DNA from: Eubacterium barkeri
Lineage (GTDB): Bacteria; Bacillota; Clostridia; Eubacteriales; Eubacteriaceae
DNA length: 24,000 bases
Direction: 5' to 3'
Assembly (NCBI RefSeq): GCF_900107125.1
Contig: NZ_FNOU01000016.1
Coordinates: forward strand, 52,163 to 76,162
Position 1 is the first letter of the stretch, and each line of letters begins with the position of its first letter. Below the pieces are notes generated by a model, which was not told where the DNA came from, did not search any database, and saw nothing but the letters and a program-made list of their open reading frames with translations. Below, one piece after another: positions 7,348-12,228 of this stretch. The position numbers and the translations under genes were made by a program.

Positions 7348-7397
7348 TATTTTAAATTAGGAGAGTATTACAAGGATACAAAAGGGAGTGATTGGGA

Positions 7398-8258
7398 ATG
7401 TGGGGTATCGTTCTGCTAGGAAATATCTTTGCTTATGGGATGTGTGCGGGGTATATGAATGCAGGAATGACACCGCGTCTGGGCAAGAAGGCAACGGGTA
7501 TTATGTGGCTGTTTTGGGCAATAGGGACCTTTTTGATTGGCCAGAGTGAGGAATTGACAGTATACCGAGGCGCGGCGAATCTTTTGTCCATTCTTTTAAT
7601 GGGTCTGATCTTTTATAAGGGCCGATCATTTTTAGGACGGATTATCTTTGTCGTCAAAATATTCTTAGTGCTTCTTTCTTTTGATGCCATCGTTTTTGGG
7701 GCCTTTTGGCTAACGGGCTGGGAAGCACCGGCAGGTGCTGCGCGTAATATTCGATACTATTTTTATAGTGTATCACTTATTTTGCTAGTCCTTTGTACCT
7801 ACCGGTTCTTTAAACCCTTTGTTGTGGGAACCAATCGGGAGAAGGGTCCTTTGTTCGATTTGATTTTAATATTGGCCTGTGTCGTTGAAGGGATGCCCAT
7901 TCTTTGGATGGATGACTACGTTCATTCGATTAATCCCAATGGGGACGGTTATATTATAGTCTATTTAATACTTATTTTAATCTTTGATGGGGCACTGATC
8001 TATGTGTTTCGGCGGATCAAACGGCAATATCGGCAAGAACAAGATTTAATGCTCCTTAAGCAGCATCAAGACTATCAACAGAATTATTACAAAGCCGTAG
8101 AGGCCCAATACCAACGTTCCAGGGAATTCGTACACGATATGCAAAATCATGTGATGATTCTATCCAGGCTTTATGCCCAGGACGAGGTTGAGCGAGCCCG
8201 GCGTTATGGGGAGTCAGTGCTTCAAAAAATTCCAGAAGCACCCAATGAGCGTCATTAA
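7398..8258 (+). CDS. AgrC/HPK10-type sensor histidine kinase lacking the ATPase domain (membrane sensor plus His-box only)
   Basis: About 6 hydrophobic helices, then a coiled-coil with the H-box REFVHDMQNHVMIL (His codon CAC at 8133-8135). The ORF stops 40 aa later and no N/G boxes follow. GGGAG (7384-7388) lies 9 nt before the ATG at 7398. The ORF-track TTG at 7392 is too close to the RBS. Confidence 0.7.
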   Translation: MWGIVLLGNIFAYGMCAGYMNAGMTPRLGKKATGIMWLFWAIGTFLIGQSEELTVYRGAANLLSILLMGLIFYKGRSFLGRIIFVVKIFLVLLSFDAIVFGAFWLTGWEAPAGAARNIRYYFYSVSLILLVLCTYRFFKPFVVGTNREKGPLFDLILILACVVEGMPILWMDDYVHSINPNGDGYIIVYLILILIFDGALIYVFRRIKRQYRQEQDLMLLKQHQDYQQNYYKAVEAQYQRSREFVHDMQNHVMILSRLYAQDEVERARRYGESVLQKIPEAPNERH

Positions 8259-8319: not shown

Positions 8320-9030
8320 ATGTTGACCATTGGTATTTGTGATGACCAGGTGGAAATCATCGATGATCTTGTGGAGCGATTAGAAAATTGGGCAGCGATC
8401 CAGGGCATCCCCCTACAAGTGAGGACCTACACCCGGGGATTGGATTTGTTAGAGGATTATCAAGGGATTGATCTGCTGTTCCTTGATATGAAAATGCCCG
8501 GAGGGGATGGAGGACCCATTGCCCGGGAAATTAAAAGGGAGGACCCCCTTCTGCCCATTGTGTTTATTACGGCTTTTACCCAATACATGCGAATGGCCTT
8601 AGATATCCATGCCTTTGGTTTTCTGGATAAGCCCATTGCCCAAAAGGCCATTGATGACATGATGTCGGACTTTTTACACTATCAGGGGGCTCAAGGGGGG
8701 GAAGCATTGCCTTTTAAAACCAAGGATGGCCTGAGGATGATTTATCCAAAAGACATCCTTTATTTTGAACGTCAGCACCGGGCCATCTATCTGGTTATGT
8801 CAGCAGAACGGTTTTGGATTAATATCCCCACATTATCGGCTGTCATGGATCAGATGGCGGACCATGGCTTCTATCAGATCCACCGAAGCTATATTATATC
8901 CTTAAAGCATATTGTCCGCATTCAGCGGGAGACCGTTCTTCTGGAGAACGGGACGTCTCTCCCTCTGGCAAAGGGCCGGGCCGCTGAATTCAGACAGGTC
9001 TATATGGGACAGATGGAGAAGGGATGGTAA
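8320..9030 (+). CDS. LytTR-family (AgrA/ComE-like) response regulator
   Basis: Receiver domain with acidic pair DD (res 8-9), phospho-acceptor Asp in LLFLDMKMPG and Lys in GFLDKP. C-terminal LytTR domain (ILYFERQHRAIYLV ... FYQIHRSYIISLKHI). Confidence 0.9.
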   Translation: MLTIGICDDQVEIIDDLVERLENWAAIQGIPLQVRTYTRGLDLLEDYQGIDLLFLDMKMPGGDGGPIAREIKREDPLLPIVFITAFTQYMRMALDIHAFGFLDKPIAQKAIDDMMSDFLHYQGAQGGEALPFKTKDGLRMIYPKDILYFERQHRAIYLVMSAERFWINIPTLSAVMDQMADHGFYQIHRSYIISLKHIVRIQRETVLLENGTSLPLAKGRAAEFRQVYMGQMEKGW

Positions 9031-9100: not shown

Positions 9101-9955
9101 GTGAATAAAAGAAAGATCAACTGGCTCATTCAGGGAATCTTTATGACCGTGTTGATTATCCTCGAAGTGGTCCCCATGACCTATTTAAATTACTACTATG
9201 TCAAGAATATCCCGGATCGGCAGATTTATATCATGGTATACAGTATGCTGCTTGTTATCTTTGATTTTACCTTGATTTACACCTTCCGGCGTATTAATTT
9301 AAGCTATCAGAAAGAAAATGAGCTTGAGCTCAAGCGACGGGCCGCTGAACTCGAGGCGCATTATTATGAGGATATTGAAAAGCAGCAGGAGGATTACGGC
9401 CACCTTTTTGATGCGATGCGCCGTCAGATCTCCCTGATGGAAGCCCTTAGTGCCAGAGGAGATACCCAGGCGTTACAGCAATGTATGACAACGACCCAGG
9501 ATCTTTTGAAGGCAACGAAGCCACCCTTTACGTGCAGTAACCATACCCTCATGATTGTACTAAGCGATAAATATAAGCGGTGTGTTGCCCTGGGAATTGA
9601 TTTTCAGGTTGACGATGGAACAAGGGGAACCGGTCACTTGTCCGATTTTGATATAACGACGATTTTTGCCAACTTACTGGATAATGCCATTGAGGCATCT
9701 GCAATGGTCGCAGAAGCAAAAATTAGGATAGTATTACGAGAAAAAGGGCAGATGCTGGCTATTACCATTGAGAATCCTTATGATAAAGCACCAGAAGGAA
9801 ACAAGGATGGTTTATTTAAAAGCAGCAAAGAAGATGCCGGCCATGGTTTGGGGTTAAAGAATGTCCAAATGGCGGTAAAGCGGTACGGGGGGAGCATTGA
9901 TTTTGATGCCCGGGATGGATGGTTTATGGTGCGGGTGTTGTTGCCAGTGCTGTAG
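9101..9955 (+). CDS. AgrC-type kinase-like protein with an intact GHKL ATPase domain, only two TM helices and a degenerate His box
   Basis: GTG start 5 nt after GGAGGGAG. N box FANLLDNAIEAS and G box GHGLGLKNV...YGGSI are present. The juxtamembrane segment is paralogous to the upstream truncated kinase, but the H-box position reads YGHLFDAMRRQI, with Asp (GAT 9410-9412) where His is expected. Confidence 0.8.
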   Translation: MNKRKINWLIQGIFMTVLIILEVVPMTYLNYYYVKNIPDRQIYIMVYSMLLVIFDFTLIYTFRRINLSYQKENELELKRRAAELEAHYYEDIEKQQEDYGHLFDAMRRQISLMEALSARGDTQALQQCMTTTQDLLKATKPPFTCSNHTLMIVLSDKYKRCVALGIDFQVDDGTRGTGHLSDFDITTIFANLLDNAIEASAMVAEAKIRIVLREKGQMLAITIENPYDKAPEGNKDGLFKSSKEDAGHGLGLKNVQMAVKRYGGSIDFDARDGWFMVRVLLPVL

Positions 9956-9965
9956 TTTACAGTTT

Positions 9966-11249
9966 TCATTCCGGCATCCCCACCACAATCAAAAACCACC
10001 CATCCTCAATCTGACAGTTTACTGTCCCTCCATAACCTTTGGCGATCTGGCGGATGGTGGACAGGCCAAAACCGTGGTTCCTTTGGTCGGCCTTGGTGGT
10101 TTTGGTTAGACTTTCATTAATTGTCGGGTTTTGACAAGTAATGTACAGTGTTTTGAGTTTAGCATCAAAGGATATTTTGAAAGTGATGGCTGGATCCGTG
10201 ATGGCGCAATGCTCGGTGGCTTCGATGGCATTATCTAAAATATTGGCGCAAATAAAGGACAAATCCAGCTCATCAATCTGATTATTTTCTTGTTCGGGAA
10301 GCGTAATGAGTGTGTTGATCAGGATACCTTTGTTTTTAGCGTTTCGGATTTTAGTGGACAGGACGGCATCCAGCCCTGGATAGCCGGTAAGGGCTAAATA
10401 ATCCTGTTCTGTAACAGTATGGGTGAGAGTGCTGATTAAATCGTTACATTCAGCTAATTTTCCAGCTTTTATCAGTCCGGACAAATGGGAGAGACTGGCG
10501 TTTAAATCATGGCGAATGCGTCGGATTTCATTTTGAGATTGGAGCATATCCGCCTGGTGAAGGCGCTGTGTTTCAATGGTTTTTTCTAAAAATTGGTTAC
10601 GTTGTTTGTCCAGCTCAGAGTCAATGGTATGATTGATGATGTTGATCAGAAGAAGGTTTGATATAAAGACCAGGATAATAATAATAAAACAGAGAGCATA
10701 GGAAACGGTCTCTGAGCCATTTCGGAATATTGCCCACATTAAAAGTGTTAAGATACACAAAGAACAAATCGGATAAAAGACAAGGAGAATATTCTTAGAG
10801 AGGAGTCCCTTCCGTTCTTTGGTCACACGAATAAAGGAAATGAGCATAAAAAAGATGACACTGGTCAGCAGAACCTGAATGACCGTATAAGTGTTTTCCA
10901 CGTTGGTGAAAAAATAAGTCATAGAGATATTGAGTACATTGAGGACAAGGGCTGAAAGAAATTCTGCAACTGAAGTAATAATAATGATTGCCAATGAAAA
11001 GAGGAGCCTTTGCGTTAATGAACATCGATAAAACAGAGTGATTAATAGTATATCACCAATACTGACGATGAGGGATAATACAGCGTGAGCCTGTAAATAA
11101 AACAAAGATTGGGCTAACCCAATGGAGACCAGGAGCATGAAGAGATAGGGAAAAATACTATTACGAATACTCTTCGGCTGACAGAGTACATCAAATCCCA
11201 AAAAGGTGACATAGGTTTTTAGACAAAGGGCAATGGTCAAAAATAGCAT
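9966..11249 (-). CDS. agrC: Full-length AgrC-like sensor histidine kinase (HPK10, GHKL ATPase)
   Basis: Six or seven TM helices, H-box EIRRIRHDLNASLSHL, N box ICANILDNAIEA and G box NHGFGLSTIRQIAKGYGGTV. I prefer the ATG at 11249 (GGAG 6 nt upstream) over the ORF-track TTG at 11261. Confidence 0.85.
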   Translation of the reverse strand: MLFLTIALCLKTYVTFLGFDVLCQPKSIRNSIFPYLFMLLVSIGLAQSLFYLQAHAVLSLIVSIGDILLITLFYRCSLTQRLLFSLAIIIITSVAEFLSALVLNVLNISMTYFFTNVENTYTVIQVLLTSVIFFMLISFIRVTKERKGLLSKNILLVFYPICSLCILTLLMWAIFRNGSETVSYALCFIIIILVFISNLLLINIINHTIDSELDKQRNQFLEKTIETQRLHQADMLQSQNEIRRIRHDLNASLSHLSGLIKAGKLAECNDLISTLTHTVTEQDYLALTGYPGLDAVLSTKIRNAKNKGILINTLITLPEQENNQIDELDLSFICANILDNAIEATEHCAITDPAITFKISFDAKLKTLYITCQNPTINESLTKTTKADQRNHGFGLSTIRQIAKGYGGTVNCQIEDGWFLIVVGMPE

Positions 11250-11278
11250 TAGAAACTCCAAACTTTTCTTTTTCTTAA

Positions 11279-11307
11279 ATTATAACCAGGAAATCTAAAA
11301 AATTCAA
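11279..11307 (-). promoter_or_regulatory. Candidate sigma-A promoter for the agrC-like gene
   Basis: Minus strand reads TTGAAT (complement of 11302-11307), a 17-nt spacer, then TATAAT (complement of 11279-11284), about 30 nt upstream of the ATG at 11249. Confidence 0.55.
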
Positions 11308-11345
11308 TTCATTATGACGAAAAACTTTACGATTAGGCAAGGGGG

Positions 11346-11373
11346 TTGGCTTTTTAGAAAAAGGTGATAAAAT
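11346..11373 (+). promoter_or_regulatory. Candidate promoter for agrD-agrB
   Basis: TTGGCT (11346-11351), 16-nt spacer, then extended -10 TGATAAAAT (11365-11373). It lies about 30 nt upstream of the agrD ATG. Confidence 0.35.
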
Positions 11374-11405
11374 AGATTTAAAATATTGACCATCGGGAGG
11401 TTATT

Positions 11406-11564
11406 ATGAAATTGAAAAGTTTAAAAGCAGCCGTTTTGAAACATGCCTGTTGGCTCTCTGCTTTAGTCGTTCTGTTGGCCCAGAATTCAGATACGTGTTT
11501 TTTTATTTCCCACCAACCTAAGTTACCGGAAGGTGCAAAAGATTTTTTCATTGATGAATTATGA
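11406..11564 (+). CDS. agrD: AgrD-type cyclic-lactone autoinducing peptide precursor (52 aa; not in the supplied ORF track)
   Basis: ATG at 11406 with GGGAGG (11395-11400) 5 nt upstream. My translation: MKLKSLKAAVLKHACWLSALVVLLAQNSDTCFFISHQPKLPEGAKDFFIDEL. It has a basic/hydrophobic leader, Cys31 (TGT 11496-11498) heading the 5-residue segment CFFIS, then an HQPxxPE acidic tail. The TGA stop (11562-11564) overlaps the agrB ATG (11561-11563). Confidence 0.75.
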   Translation: MKLKSLKAAVLKHACWLSALVVLLAQNSDTCFFISHQPKLPEGAKDFFIDEL

Positions 11565-12151
11565 TTAAACAATGGGGCCAGCAGATGGCGGCGGTGTGTT
11601 GCCGGGAAGGGGTACTTAAGGAAAAAAACCGTGAAGCCATTGCCTTTGGCTTTGAGGAGTTAATCTTCGTACTCATCAATCTTGTGGTCATTGCCACGAT
11701 TGCAGCGTTCACCCAGGCGTTACTAAATGCCCTCATTTTCTGCGTTATCTACTTGTCCCTTGTTCGGCTTGTTGGGATTTATCATGCAAAAACCCGGAAG
11801 GGATGCTTCATCAAGACCATGATTGTCTTTGTAGCCTATCTTCTGATTATGAGAGGGGTACCCTCGGATTATTATGTCATTGGCAGCCTGGGAAGCTTTT
11901 TATTCTATCTGATAACAGCCTGGTCCCTGACTCCTGTCATGCATATCGATAAGCCCCTGACGGAGGAGCAAAAGGCCCTTAATCGAAAAAAGGCTCTGAT
12001 CTATTCCATGGTTTTTGTCGCAATTGGAGGGGTGTTTTTCATGGTGGGGTGGTGGCAGCCGTTATTTGCCATGGCGGTCACTCTGGATATGGTGGCATTG
12101 ATGGCGATTTTGGGCTATCTGTTCAATGAACGGGCACCCATTGAAGTCTAG
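11561..12151 (+). CDS. agrB: AgrB-family membrane peptidase (autoinducer precursor processing)
   Basis: 196 aa polytopic membrane protein. It carries the AgrB catalytic pair in GIYHAKTRKGC (His75, Cys82), 7 residues apart as recalled for S. aureus AgrB His77/Cys84. It is translationally coupled to the agrD-like ORF. Confidence 0.85.
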   Translation: MIKQWGQQMAAVCCREGVLKEKNREAIAFGFEELIFVLINLVVIATIAAFTQALLNALIFCVIYLSLVRLVGIYHAKTRKGCFIKTMIVFVAYLLIMRGVPSDYYVIGSLGSFLFYLITAWSLTPVMHIDKPLTEEQKALNRKKALIYSMVFVAIGGVFFMVGWWQPLFAMAVTLDMVALMAILGYLFNERAPIEV

Positions 12152-12180: not shown

Positions 12181-12228
12181 AAAATAAGGGATTGTCCCGG
12201 GGGTAAGTACTCCCAGGGCAGTCCCTTT
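12181..12228. terminator. Long bidirectional hairpin terminator between agrB (+) and hisIE (-)
   Basis: 18-position stem pairing 12186-12203 with 12210-12227 (14 Watson-Crick pairs, 3 G-U, 1 mismatch), with 6-nt loop TAAGTA. The minus strand continues with TTATTTTTAAG (good U-tract for the his operon). The plus strand continues with only TTTAT. Confidence 0.7.

What the first reader, a model, noticed from the sequence alone, without database searches (positions are those of the whole stretch)
11406..11564. Unlisted 52-codon ORF upstream of agrB encodes an AgrD-type autoinducer precursor (predicted thiolactone core CFFIS)
Seen in sequence: the supplied ORF track omits this gene, and the only track entry covering the region is a 64-aa antisense ORF. 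An ATG at 11406 sits 5 nt after GGGAGG and opens a 52-codon frame: MKLKSLKAAVLKHACWLSALVVLLAQNSDTCFFISHQPKLPEGAKDFFIDEL. Its stop overlaps the ATG of the AgrB-family gene (ATGA at 11561-11564). Established knowledge: AgrD precursors are about 40-55 aa. They have an amphipathic/hydrophobic N-terminal leader, a Cys (or Ser) that forms a 5-residue thio(lactone) ring, and a charged C-terminal tail recognised and removed by AgrB. Clostridial examples have a Q/E-P-x-x-P motif right after the ring; from memory, C. perfringens AgrD reads ...CLWFT-HQPEEPKSL. Here CFFIS-HQPKLPEG matches that pattern almost residue for residue. Inference: the mature signal is a thiolactone between Cys31 and the Ser35 carboxylate, with an N-terminal tail of unknown length. 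The exact peptide sequence may well be undescribed.
Basis: partly seen in the sequence, partly recalled or inferred. Interest (0 to 1): 0.8.

Follow-up and report, generated by a model that had tools for sequence, protein, structure and literature searches.

The report
Already-annotated AgrD quorum-sensing peptide gene
The 52-codon frame is a real gene for the precursor of a small cyclic bacterial signalling peptide (AgrD type), but the identical protein is already annotated as exactly that in the public Eubacterium barkeri genome, so the finding is correct and ordinary.

Summary
ATG 11406 to TGA 11564 is a 52-codon frame. GGGAGG (11395-11400) lies 5 nt upstream, and the stop overlaps the agrB start (ATGA 11561-11564).

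- The peptide passes NCBIfam TIGR04223 (AgrD family), 24.5 bits against a cutoff of 19.
- It is translationally coupled to a Pfam AgrB gene (77.5 bits).
- An AgrC-like histidine kinase is transcribed divergently, and a LytTR response regulator lies nearby.
- A 51%-identical paralogue (CLFFS-YQPEIPEE) has the same kinase / agrD / agrB layout, including the ATGA overlap.

It is not new. The exact 52-aa sequence is RefSeq WP_090245957.1, [quoted passage not shown]. A public assembly is 100% identical to the window over 20,159 nt and calls the gene there. The gene was probably "unlisted" only because the ORF lister defaults to 60 aa or more.

One caveat concerns chemistry. In several other Clostridia, tail-free AIPs rearrange into head-to-tail cyclopeptides, so a CFFIS thiolactone is not assured.

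Side notes: close relatives carry ring alleles CFFIS, CFLIS and CFLIA. Two E. aggregans copies look damaged, one by an apparent IS-type insertion at the 5' end and one by a frameshift in a T run. No experimental work on this system was found in the searched library.

The parts
11406..11564 (+). agrD: 52-aa precursor of a cyclic autoinducing peptide (leader 1-~26, conserved Q-N-S-D-T 26-30, ring core C31-F-F-I-S35, follower H36-L52)
   Evidence: Translation. TIGR04223 scores 24.5 bits against a cutoff of 19. Identical to RefSeq WP_090245957.1. Paralogue alignment.
11496..11510 (+). Codons for the predicted ring residues Cys31-Phe-Phe-Ile-Ser35. They contain a T7 run at 11498-11504.
   Evidence: Sequence. 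Alleles CFFIS, CFLIS and CFLIA in close relatives. The L003 copy has T9 in this run and a frameshift.
11395..11400 (+). Shine-Dalgarno-like GGGAGG, 5 nt before the ATG
   Evidence: Sequence. Nearly the same in L002 and L003 (GGGAGG or AGGAGG).
11346..11373 (+). Promoter-like site for agrD-agrB (TTGGCT, 16 nt, TG-n-TAAAAT). Consensus match only.
   Evidence: 9 of 12 matches, with the TG extension.
11279..11307 (-). Promoter-like site for the divergent kinase gene (TTGAAT, 17 nt, TATAAT). Consensus match only.
   Evidence: 10 of 12 matches.
11561..12151 (+). agrB: 196-aa membrane peptidase/cyclase. His75 and Cys82 lie 7 residues apart, as do the catalytic H77 and C84 of S. aureus AgrB.
   Evidence: Pfam PF04647 scores 77.5 bits. 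His/Cys positions and hydrophobic segments. S. aureus residues from PMC10196373.
12186..12227 (.). Strong G+C-rich hairpin followed by UUUAU, between the convergent agrB and hisIE genes. Likely a terminator.
   Evidence: MFE -32.7 kcal/mol, z-score -3.16 against shuffles.
9966..11261 (-). AgrC-like sensor histidine kinase. It is 431 aa from TTG 11261; relatives start at the ATG at 11249, giving 427 aa. About 7 hydrophobic segments in the first ~205 aa, then a GHKL ATPase domain.
   Evidence: Pfam HATPase_c_5 scores 75 bits. Hydrophobic segments. 95% identical orthologue in the same position in L002.
8320..9030 (+). LytTR-family response regulator, the candidate AgrA-type partner
   Evidence: Pfam Response_reg and LytTR. 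Weak similarity to NCBIfam quorum_RR_AgrA, far below its cutoff.
9101..9955 (+). Second, short histidine kinase (284 aa, 2 hydrophobic segments) downstream of the LytTR regulator. Whether it belongs to the agr circuit is unknown.
   Evidence: Pfam HATPase_c_5 scores 84 bits. Hydrophobic segments.

Best explanation
Window 11406-11564 is the agrD gene of an agr-type quorum-sensing locus in Eubacterium barkeri.

Shown by tool results:
- The 52-aa product belongs to the AgrD family (TIGR04223).
- It is translationally coupled to agrB through an ATGA overlap.
- An AgrC-like polytopic histidine kinase is transcribed divergently from the shared 144-nt intergenic region. A LytTR response regulator lies 2.4 kb away.

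Inferred from the S. aureus and clostridial paradigms:
- The basic and hydrophobic leader takes the precursor to the membrane.
- AgrB (His75/Cys82) cuts after Ser35, removes the follower HQPKLPEGAKDFFIDEL, and joins the Ser35 carbonyl to the Cys31 thiol.
- A second, unidentified peptidase removes the leader.
- The released peptide, with ring CFFIS, is sensed by the AgrC-like kinase, which signals through a LytTR regulator.

If the leader is cut directly before Cys31, the thiolactone should rearrange spontaneously (S-to-N acyl shift) into cyclo(CFFIS), as shown for other Clostridia. If a tail remains, the thiolactone persists.
For: - Family: TIGR04223 scores 24.5 bits against a cutoff of 19, E 2.2e-5, covering residues 24-45.
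- Neighbours: AgrB PF04647 scores 77.5 bits. The adjacent kinases hit HATPase_c_5 and the regulator hits LytTR.
- Anatomy: SD-like site, 5-nt spacer and 4-nt ATGA overlap.
- Public annotation: the exact sequence is annotated in RefSeq as an AgrD family cyclic lactone autoinducer peptide of E. barkeri. An independent gene caller calls it on a contig 100% identical to the window over 20,159 nt.
- Conservation: paralogue P0003 (47 aa, 51% identity, also named 'cyclic lactone autoinducer peptide') sits in the same layout, regulator and kinase divergent from agrD then agrB, with the same ATGA overlap. LSALVV, Q-x-SD-x-C, Ser35 and QPxxPE are invariant while ring positions 2-4 vary.
- Coding signal: 9 synonymous versus 4 non-synonymous codon changes against L002. 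The antisense frames are broken in the paralogue.
- AgrB active site: H75 and C82 are spaced as S. aureus H77 and C84.
- C. perfringens has ring CLWFT followed by His.
Against: - No expression or peptide data exist for this organism. No paper linked E. barkeri to quorum sensing in substance.
- Pfam AgrD PF05931 gives no hit.
- The leader has only a low hydrophobic moment (0.33 or less). It looks like a signal peptide rather than an amphipathic helix.
- No LytTR-type direct repeats above chance were found in the intergenic region.
- The LytTR regulator is not co-transcribed with the AgrC-like kinase here, so the signalling partners are not established.
- Two related genomes carry damaged copies, so the locus is dispensable in some lineages.
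Confidence: 0.93

Rival explanations
1. This reading accepts the gene as AgrD but disputes the product. The mature signal is not a tailed thiolactone. It is the tail-free homodetic cyclopeptide cyclo(Cys-Phe-Phe-Ile-Ser), formed when the leader is cut directly before Cys31 and the cryptic thiolactone undergoes an S-to-N acyl shift.
For: Molloy et al. 2021 (PMC8251862) showed that the R. cellulolyticum AIP and the tail-free AIPs they detected in several other Clostridia are homodetic cyclopeptides. E. barkeri is in class Clostridia. The C. perfringens AIP is described as probably a tailless 5-membered ring. S-D-[TS] directly before the Cys is invariant between paralogues, which would fit a leader-cleavage recognition site.
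Against: The conserved SD[TS] could equally be a retained exocyclic tail. Staphylococcal AIPs keep tails, and tails are predicted for some clostridial ones. No leader peptidase is identified here, and there are no chemical data.
Confidence: 0.4
2. The 52-codon frame is not translated. The region is only the 5' leader of the agrB mRNA, and the frame is open by chance.
For: Short ORFs are common by chance, and Pfam AgrD gives no hit.
Against: It passes a curated family threshold. It has an SD-like site at proper spacing and an ATGA overlap. The frame and its motifs are conserved at 51% identity in a paralogous locus. Codon changes are mostly synonymous. Two independent pipelines annotate it.
Confidence: 0.03
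3. The real gene is the 64-aa antisense ORF (11378-11572, minus strand) that the ORF track listed.
For: It is longer than the sense frame and stays open in close relatives such as L010.
Against: It has no Pfam family. In L002 a stop removes its last 5 codons. All three antisense frames are interrupted in the paralogous locus L004. Its persistence in near-identical relatives follows simply from conservation of the sense gene.
Confidence: 0.01

Closest known systems
RefSeq WP_090245957.1 / SDY10605.1, 'AgrD family cyclic lactone autoinducer peptide [Eubacterium barkeri]'
   Same: Identical 52-aa sequence. It is the same gene.
   Different: Nothing at the sequence level. The public record is a computational annotation without experimental support.
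Second agr locus annotated in Eubacterium aggregans: WP_090310047.1 (P0003, 47 aa, ring CLFFS, follower YQPEIPEE)
   Same: 51% identity and the same layout: regulator and kinase divergent from agrD then agrB, with an ATGA overlap. LSALVV, QxSDxC, Ser at ring position 5 and QPxxPE are invariant.
   Different: Ring residues 2-4 and the follower tail differ. Its LytTR regulator is co-transcribed with the kinase, and further kinase/regulator genes follow agrB.
Clostridium perfringens AgrD / AIP (ring CLWFT)
   Same: A five-residue Cys-initiated hydrophobic/aromatic ring followed directly by His (CLWFTH).
   Different: The ring sequence differs. The locus is written agrBD, with B before D, whereas here D precedes B. 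The further follower similarity (QPEEP) rests on memory only and could not be checked.
Staphylococcus aureus agrBDCA
   Same: The same four component types: AgrD precursor, AgrB with a His and Cys 7 residues apart, a polytopic HPK10-type kinase, and a LytTR regulator. A 5-residue ring with polymorphic ring residues.
   Different: The gene order is D then B, with the kinase divergent and the regulator elsewhere. There is no Pfam PF05931 match. No RNAIII-like RNA was detected (Rfam found nothing). The leader is signal-peptide-like rather than clearly amphipathic.
Ruminiclostridium cellulolyticum Rc-AIP1 (cAIP; Molloy et al. 2021)
   Same: A clostridial agrBD-type pair that makes a 5-residue Cys-initiated ring.
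   Different: That product was chemically proven to be a homodetic cyclopeptide. The product here is unknown.

Membership tests
AgrD family cyclic lactone autoinducer peptide (NCBIfam TIGR04223) | Score at or above the curated cutoff of the family model | tested here: met
   24.5 bits against a cutoff of 19, E 2.2e-5, residues 24-45 on profile positions 14-37 of 38.
AgrD family cyclic lactone autoinducer peptide (NCBIfam TIGR04223) | Small precursor of roughly 40-50 aa | tested here: met
   52 aa; relatives are 47-54 aa. The range comes from PMC12312760.
AgrD family cyclic lactone autoinducer peptide (NCBIfam TIGR04223) | Encoded next to, and co-transcribed with, an AgrB (PF04647) gene | tested here: met
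   ATGA overlap with a 196-aa AgrB scoring 77.5 bits. The same holds in L002, L010, L011 and the paralogue L004.
AgrD family cyclic lactone autoinducer peptide (NCBIfam TIGR04223) | Cys or Ser followed by four residues (the ring), then a conserved, charged follower peptide | tested here: met
   C31-FFI-S35 followed by HQPKLPEGAKDFFIDEL. C31, S35, Q37, P38, P41 and E42 are invariant against the 51% paralogue.
AgrD family cyclic lactone autoinducer peptide (NCBIfam TIGR04223) | N-terminal amphipathic, membrane-targeting leader | tested here: inconclusive
   A basic N-terminus (K2, K4, K7, K12) and a hydrophobic core (ACWLSALVVLLA) are present, but the helical hydrophobic moment is only 0.33 or less.
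AgrD family cyclic lactone autoinducer peptide (NCBIfam TIGR04223) | AgrB-dependent production of a cyclic (thio)lactone or derived cyclopeptide | not testable with these tools
   Needs mass spectrometry of supernatants or heterologous co-expression.
Pfam AgrD (PF05931, staphylococcal-type AgrD) | Match to the Pfam model | tested here: not met
   No hit at E up to 1. The peptide belongs to the broader TIGR04223 family, not to this narrower model.
AgrB (PF04647), for the partner gene | Model match, plus the catalytic His and Cys 7 residues apart (S. aureus H77/C84) | tested here: met
   77.5 bits against a cutoff of 23. H75 and C82 lie in YHAKTRKGC, compared with H77/C84 in PMC10196373. The correspondence was judged by spacing and position, not by a formal alignment. 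R69 and G72 sit near, but not exactly at, the R70 and G75 equivalents.
Complete agr-type quorum-sensing circuit (AgrB, D, C, A) | Cognate polytopic HPK10-type kinase and LytTR regulator, and a LytTR-regulated promoter upstream of agrD | tested here: inconclusive
   A kinase with about 7 hydrophobic segments and HATPase_c_5 is divergent from agrD, and a LytTR regulator lies at 8320-9030. The regulator is not in the kinase's operon. No direct repeats above chance were found in the intergenic region: 5 observed against 2.9 ± 3.0 in shuffles.

The most novel reading that the evidence does not exclude
The E. barkeri / E. aggregans group carries ring alleles of this AgrD (CFFIS, CFLIS, CFLIA) that could be distinct signalling specificity groups. 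The locus may also be switched off repeatedly. In E. aggregans SR12 an apparent IS-type insertion replaces the start of agrD. In another E. aggregans assembly the T run inside the ring codons is T9 instead of T7, which shifts the frame. If that T run slips in vivo, it would be a built-in on/off switch for signal production, a route to 'signal-blind or signal-mute' variants like those known in S. aureus agr.
Probability: 0.2. Interest if true: 0.4.

Novelty: already known. Interest (0 to 1): 0.12.

Why it matters
It matters little beyond bookkeeping. The result shows that the first-stage ORF track misses genes under 60 aa, and that a reader can recover an AgrD gene from raw sequence. Biologically, E. 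barkeri (a nicotinate-fermenting anaerobe) and its relatives have a predicted but unstudied agr system. The predicted core CFFIS, with its natural variants CFLIS and CFLIA, gives concrete synthetic targets for anyone who wants to study quorum sensing in Eubacteriaceae.

Tried and rejected
- Pfam AgrD PF05931: no hit.
- PDB sequence searches with AgrB and AgrD: nothing meaningful. The AgrB catalytic residues therefore could not be aligned to a deposited sequence.
- Exhaustive phmmer of the 52-aa peptide against 1.84 billion representatives: only 3 hits at E 1e-3 or better, all in this Eubacterium group.
- Word-indexed searches with AgrB and with the AgrD alignment: only near-identical relatives. 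How widespread the D-before-B order is among distant AgrB loci could not be measured.
- The genome contigs and metagenome-contig scans each gave one close relative.
- Search for LytTR-type direct repeats (9-mers, 18-24 nt apart) in the intergenic regions of the window and of the paralogue: not above shuffles. The repeat finder found only short A/T-rich inverted repeats.
- Rfam scan of the whole window: no family.
- Literature: nothing relevant for 'agrDB', 'HQPEEP', or E. barkeri with quorum sensing. The supplement of the RefSeq-wide AgrD mining paper is not held, so I could not show this peptide in its catalogue.
- I tested whether the non-homologous DNA upstream of agrD in L003 is the same element as in SR12. 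It is not alignable. The shared ACACTCCC at both junctions remains unexplained.

Full report
**1. Observation.** The frame is exactly as described.
- ATG 11406 to TGA 11562-11564 is 52 codons and translates to MKLKSLKAAVLKHACWLSALVVLLAQNSDTCFFISHQPKLPEGAKDFFIDEL.
- GGGAGG occupies 11395-11400, with a 5-nt spacer before the ATG.
- The stop overlaps the ATG of a 196-aa ORF (11561-12151) in an ATGA.
- The antisense 64-aa ORF at 11378-11572 exists.
- The gene was probably "unlisted" because the ORF lister defaults to a 60-aa minimum. That cutoff drops the 52-aa sense frame and keeps the 64-aa antisense frame.

**2. Identity of the gene.**
- The peptide matches NCBIfam TIGR04223 (AgrD family cyclic lactone autoinducer peptide) at 24.5 bits, above the curated cutoff of 19, over residues 24-45.
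- Pfam's AgrD model PF05931 gives no hit.
- The downstream ORF is AgrB (PF04647, 77.5 bits). Its His75 and Cys82 lie 7 residues apart, as do the catalytic H77 and C84 of S. aureus AgrB (PMC10196373).
- A histidine kinase is transcribed divergently from agrD (9966-11261, minus strand). It has a GHKL HATPase_c_5 domain and about seven hydrophobic segments in its first ~205 residues, which is the AgrC type of architecture.
- A LytTR response regulator (8320-9030) and a second short kinase (9101-9955) lie just beyond it on the plus strand.
- The locus sits between housekeeping genes (tex, carD, a PIN/TRAM protein, rsmF) and the histidine biosynthesis operon.
- Consensus scans find promoter-like sites in both directions in the 144-nt intergenic region.
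- A strong hairpin followed by UUUAU lies after agrB (12186-12227; z -3.2).

**3. Already public.**
- An exact-sequence look-up shows the 52-aa peptide is RefSeq WP_090245957.1 / GenBank SDY10605.1, named [quoted passage not shown].
- A public assembly contig (L011) is 100% identical to window 1406-21564 over 20,159 nt, and its gene calls include the 52-aa gene.
- The window is therefore very probably E. barkeri (class Clostridia, family Eubacteriaceae).
- A 2025 study mined 223,243 RefSeq genomes with PF04647 and TIGR04223 and listed about 4,700 clostridial AgrD precursors (PMC12180512). A TIGR04223-positive RefSeq peptide falls in the scope of such catalogues, but I could not check its list.
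- No paper on quorum sensing in E. barkeri or E. aggregans was found in the searched library.

**4. Conservation.**
- Close relatives (91-94% nucleotide identity) keep the gene in the same place.
- Against L002, 14 nucleotide differences give 9 synonymous and 4 non-synonymous codon changes.
- The informative comparison is a paralogue, P0003 (47 aa, 51% identity). It is annotated in E. aggregans as a cyclic lactone autoinducer peptide.
- Its locus has the same anatomy: LytTR regulator and kinase divergent from agrD, then agrB with an ATGA overlap.
- The alignment keeps the leader core LSALVV, Q-x-S-D-x-C, Ser at ring position 5 and Q-P-x-x-P-E invariant, while ring positions 2-4 differ. This is the pattern expected of AgrD.
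- All three antisense frames are broken in the paralogue, which disposes of the antisense ORF. That ORF also has no Pfam family.

**5. Mechanism.**

Shown by tool results: family membership, coupling to AgrB, and the neighbouring receptor-type kinase and LytTR regulator.

Inferred from the S. aureus paradigm (PMC12312760):
- AgrB cleaves after Ser35, releases the follower HQPKLPEGAKDFFIDEL and forms a Cys31-Ser35 thiolactone.
- A second peptidase removes the leader.
- The peptide is sensed by the AgrC-like kinase.

Several steps remain open:
- In several Clostridia, the AIPs detected without an N-terminal tail are not thiolactones. They rearrange by S-to-N acyl shift into homodetic cyclopeptides (PMC8251862). 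The C. perfringens signal is described as probably tailless (PMC7300355).
- Whether E. barkeri makes cyclo(CFFIS) or a tailed thiolactone therefore cannot be decided from sequence. I put about 0.4 on the tail-free cyclopeptide.
- The invariant S-D-[TS] before the Cys could be either a cleavage signal or a retained tail.
- The regulatory half of the circuit is also not established. The LytTR regulator is not in the kinase's operon, and no LytTR-type direct repeats exceed chance in the intergenic region.

Papers confirm the ring CLWFT and the following His (CLWFTH). The rest of the recalled follower (QPEEPKSL) could not be verified.

**7. Comparison with known systems.** This is a member of the AgrD/AgrB family, and it is in fact the already-annotated E. 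barkeri AgrD. It differs from the staphylococcal archetype in four ways:
- Gene order: D precedes B, the kinase is divergent and the regulator lies elsewhere.
- It does not match PF05931.
- Its leader is signal-peptide-like, with a hydrophobic moment of 0.33 or less.
- No RNAIII-type RNA was found (Rfam found nothing).

I could not measure how common the D-before-B order is, because the searches returned only close relatives. It is shared by both loci of this Eubacterium group.

**8. Side observations.**
- The 90% cluster holds ring alleles CFFIS, CFLIS and CFLIA. AgrB (92%) and the kinase (95%) differ only modestly between a CFFIS genome and a CFLIS genome, with no obvious hypervariable block.
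- In E. aggregans SR12, homology to the window starts only at codon 4 of agrD. The DNA upstream ends with an ORF tail (…ALQKALYLATFEATKKW…YEGRLPE*) that I recognise from memory as IS256-like. Pfam did not confirm this on the 50-aa fragment. RefSeq still calls a 42-aa AgrD there from an internal TTG.
- In assembly GCA_051648865, the T run inside the ring codons is T9 instead of T7. This gives a 44-aa frameshifted product, and the kinase side is replaced by unrelated DNA. An assembly error cannot be excluded.

**9. Verdict.** The finding is already known as a public annotation and is ordinary in kind. The only open points are the exact chemical form of the signal and the meaning of the allelic and inactivated variants.

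Noticed in passing
L001 1-330 (E. aggregans SR12, NZ_FNRK01000018.1 contig end), corresponding to window ~11262-11414: In the SR12 copy, the first three codons, the SD site, the promoter and the divergent kinase are replaced by unrelated DNA. That DNA ends in an ORF tail that looks like an IS256-type transposase (…ALQKALYLATFEATKKWRLPLRNWGLVYGELSMMYEGRLPE*). RefSeq still annotates a 42-aa AgrD there from an internal TTG (WP_176966701.1). The transposase identity rests on memory; Pfam gave no hit on the 50-aa fragment.
   Followed up: partly
window 11498-11504 (T7 run inside ring codons); L003 302-460: The homopolymer T run inside the Cys-Phe-Phe codons is T7 here, T6 in the CFLIS alleles and T9 in GCA_051648865. 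T9 shifts the frame and gives a 44-aa 'hypothetical protein', while the downstream HQPKLPEG…IDEL reading frame is still recognisable. This could be an assembly error, a pseudogene or slipped-strand switching.
   Followed up: partly
window 11496-11510; P0001, P0008-P0015, L010 1131-1289: The AgrD ring has natural variants in close relatives: CFFIS, CFLIS and CFLIA. Leader (V10F, L23M, A25V) and follower (A44V, F48S) substitutions also occur. AgrB and the kinase show no obvious hypervariable block between a CFFIS genome and a CFLIS genome (92% and 95% identity).
   Followed up: partly
L003 1-185, against window upstream of 11290: In GCA_051648865 the AgrC-like kinase side of the locus is replaced by unrelated DNA that carries a divergent ORF start (MTKKQRITIFSNRLYDMQCKIDENMELAENG…). 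The junction motif ACACTCCC resembles the one at the SR12 junction, although the two inserts do not align.
   Followed up: partly
L004 3809-9880 (paralogous agr locus annotated in E. aggregans): The second agr locus of this group is richer in signalling genes. A LytTR regulator and kinase are divergent from agrD-agrB, and a further LytTR regulator, a kinase and a third LytTR regulator follow downstream. Whether E. barkeri also carries this second locus was not checked.
   Followed up: no
window 7392-8258 (+): A 288-aa ORF with no Pfam family lies directly upstream of the LytTR regulator and short kinase pair. It is also called as a 286-aa gene in the identical public contig. Its function is unknown.
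   Followed up: no
window 9966-11261 (-): The mechanical ORF for the AgrC-like kinase starts at TTG 11261 (431 aa). Public gene calls on the identical contig L011 and on the relative L002 start it at the ATG at 11249 (427 aa, MLFLTIAL…), which is the more likely start.
   Followed up: yes
window 12186-12227: A strong G+C-rich hairpin (-30 kcal/mol centroid, z -3.2) lies between the convergent agrB and hisIE genes. It is probably a bidirectional terminator, and the simple terminator scan did not pick it up.
   Followed up: partly
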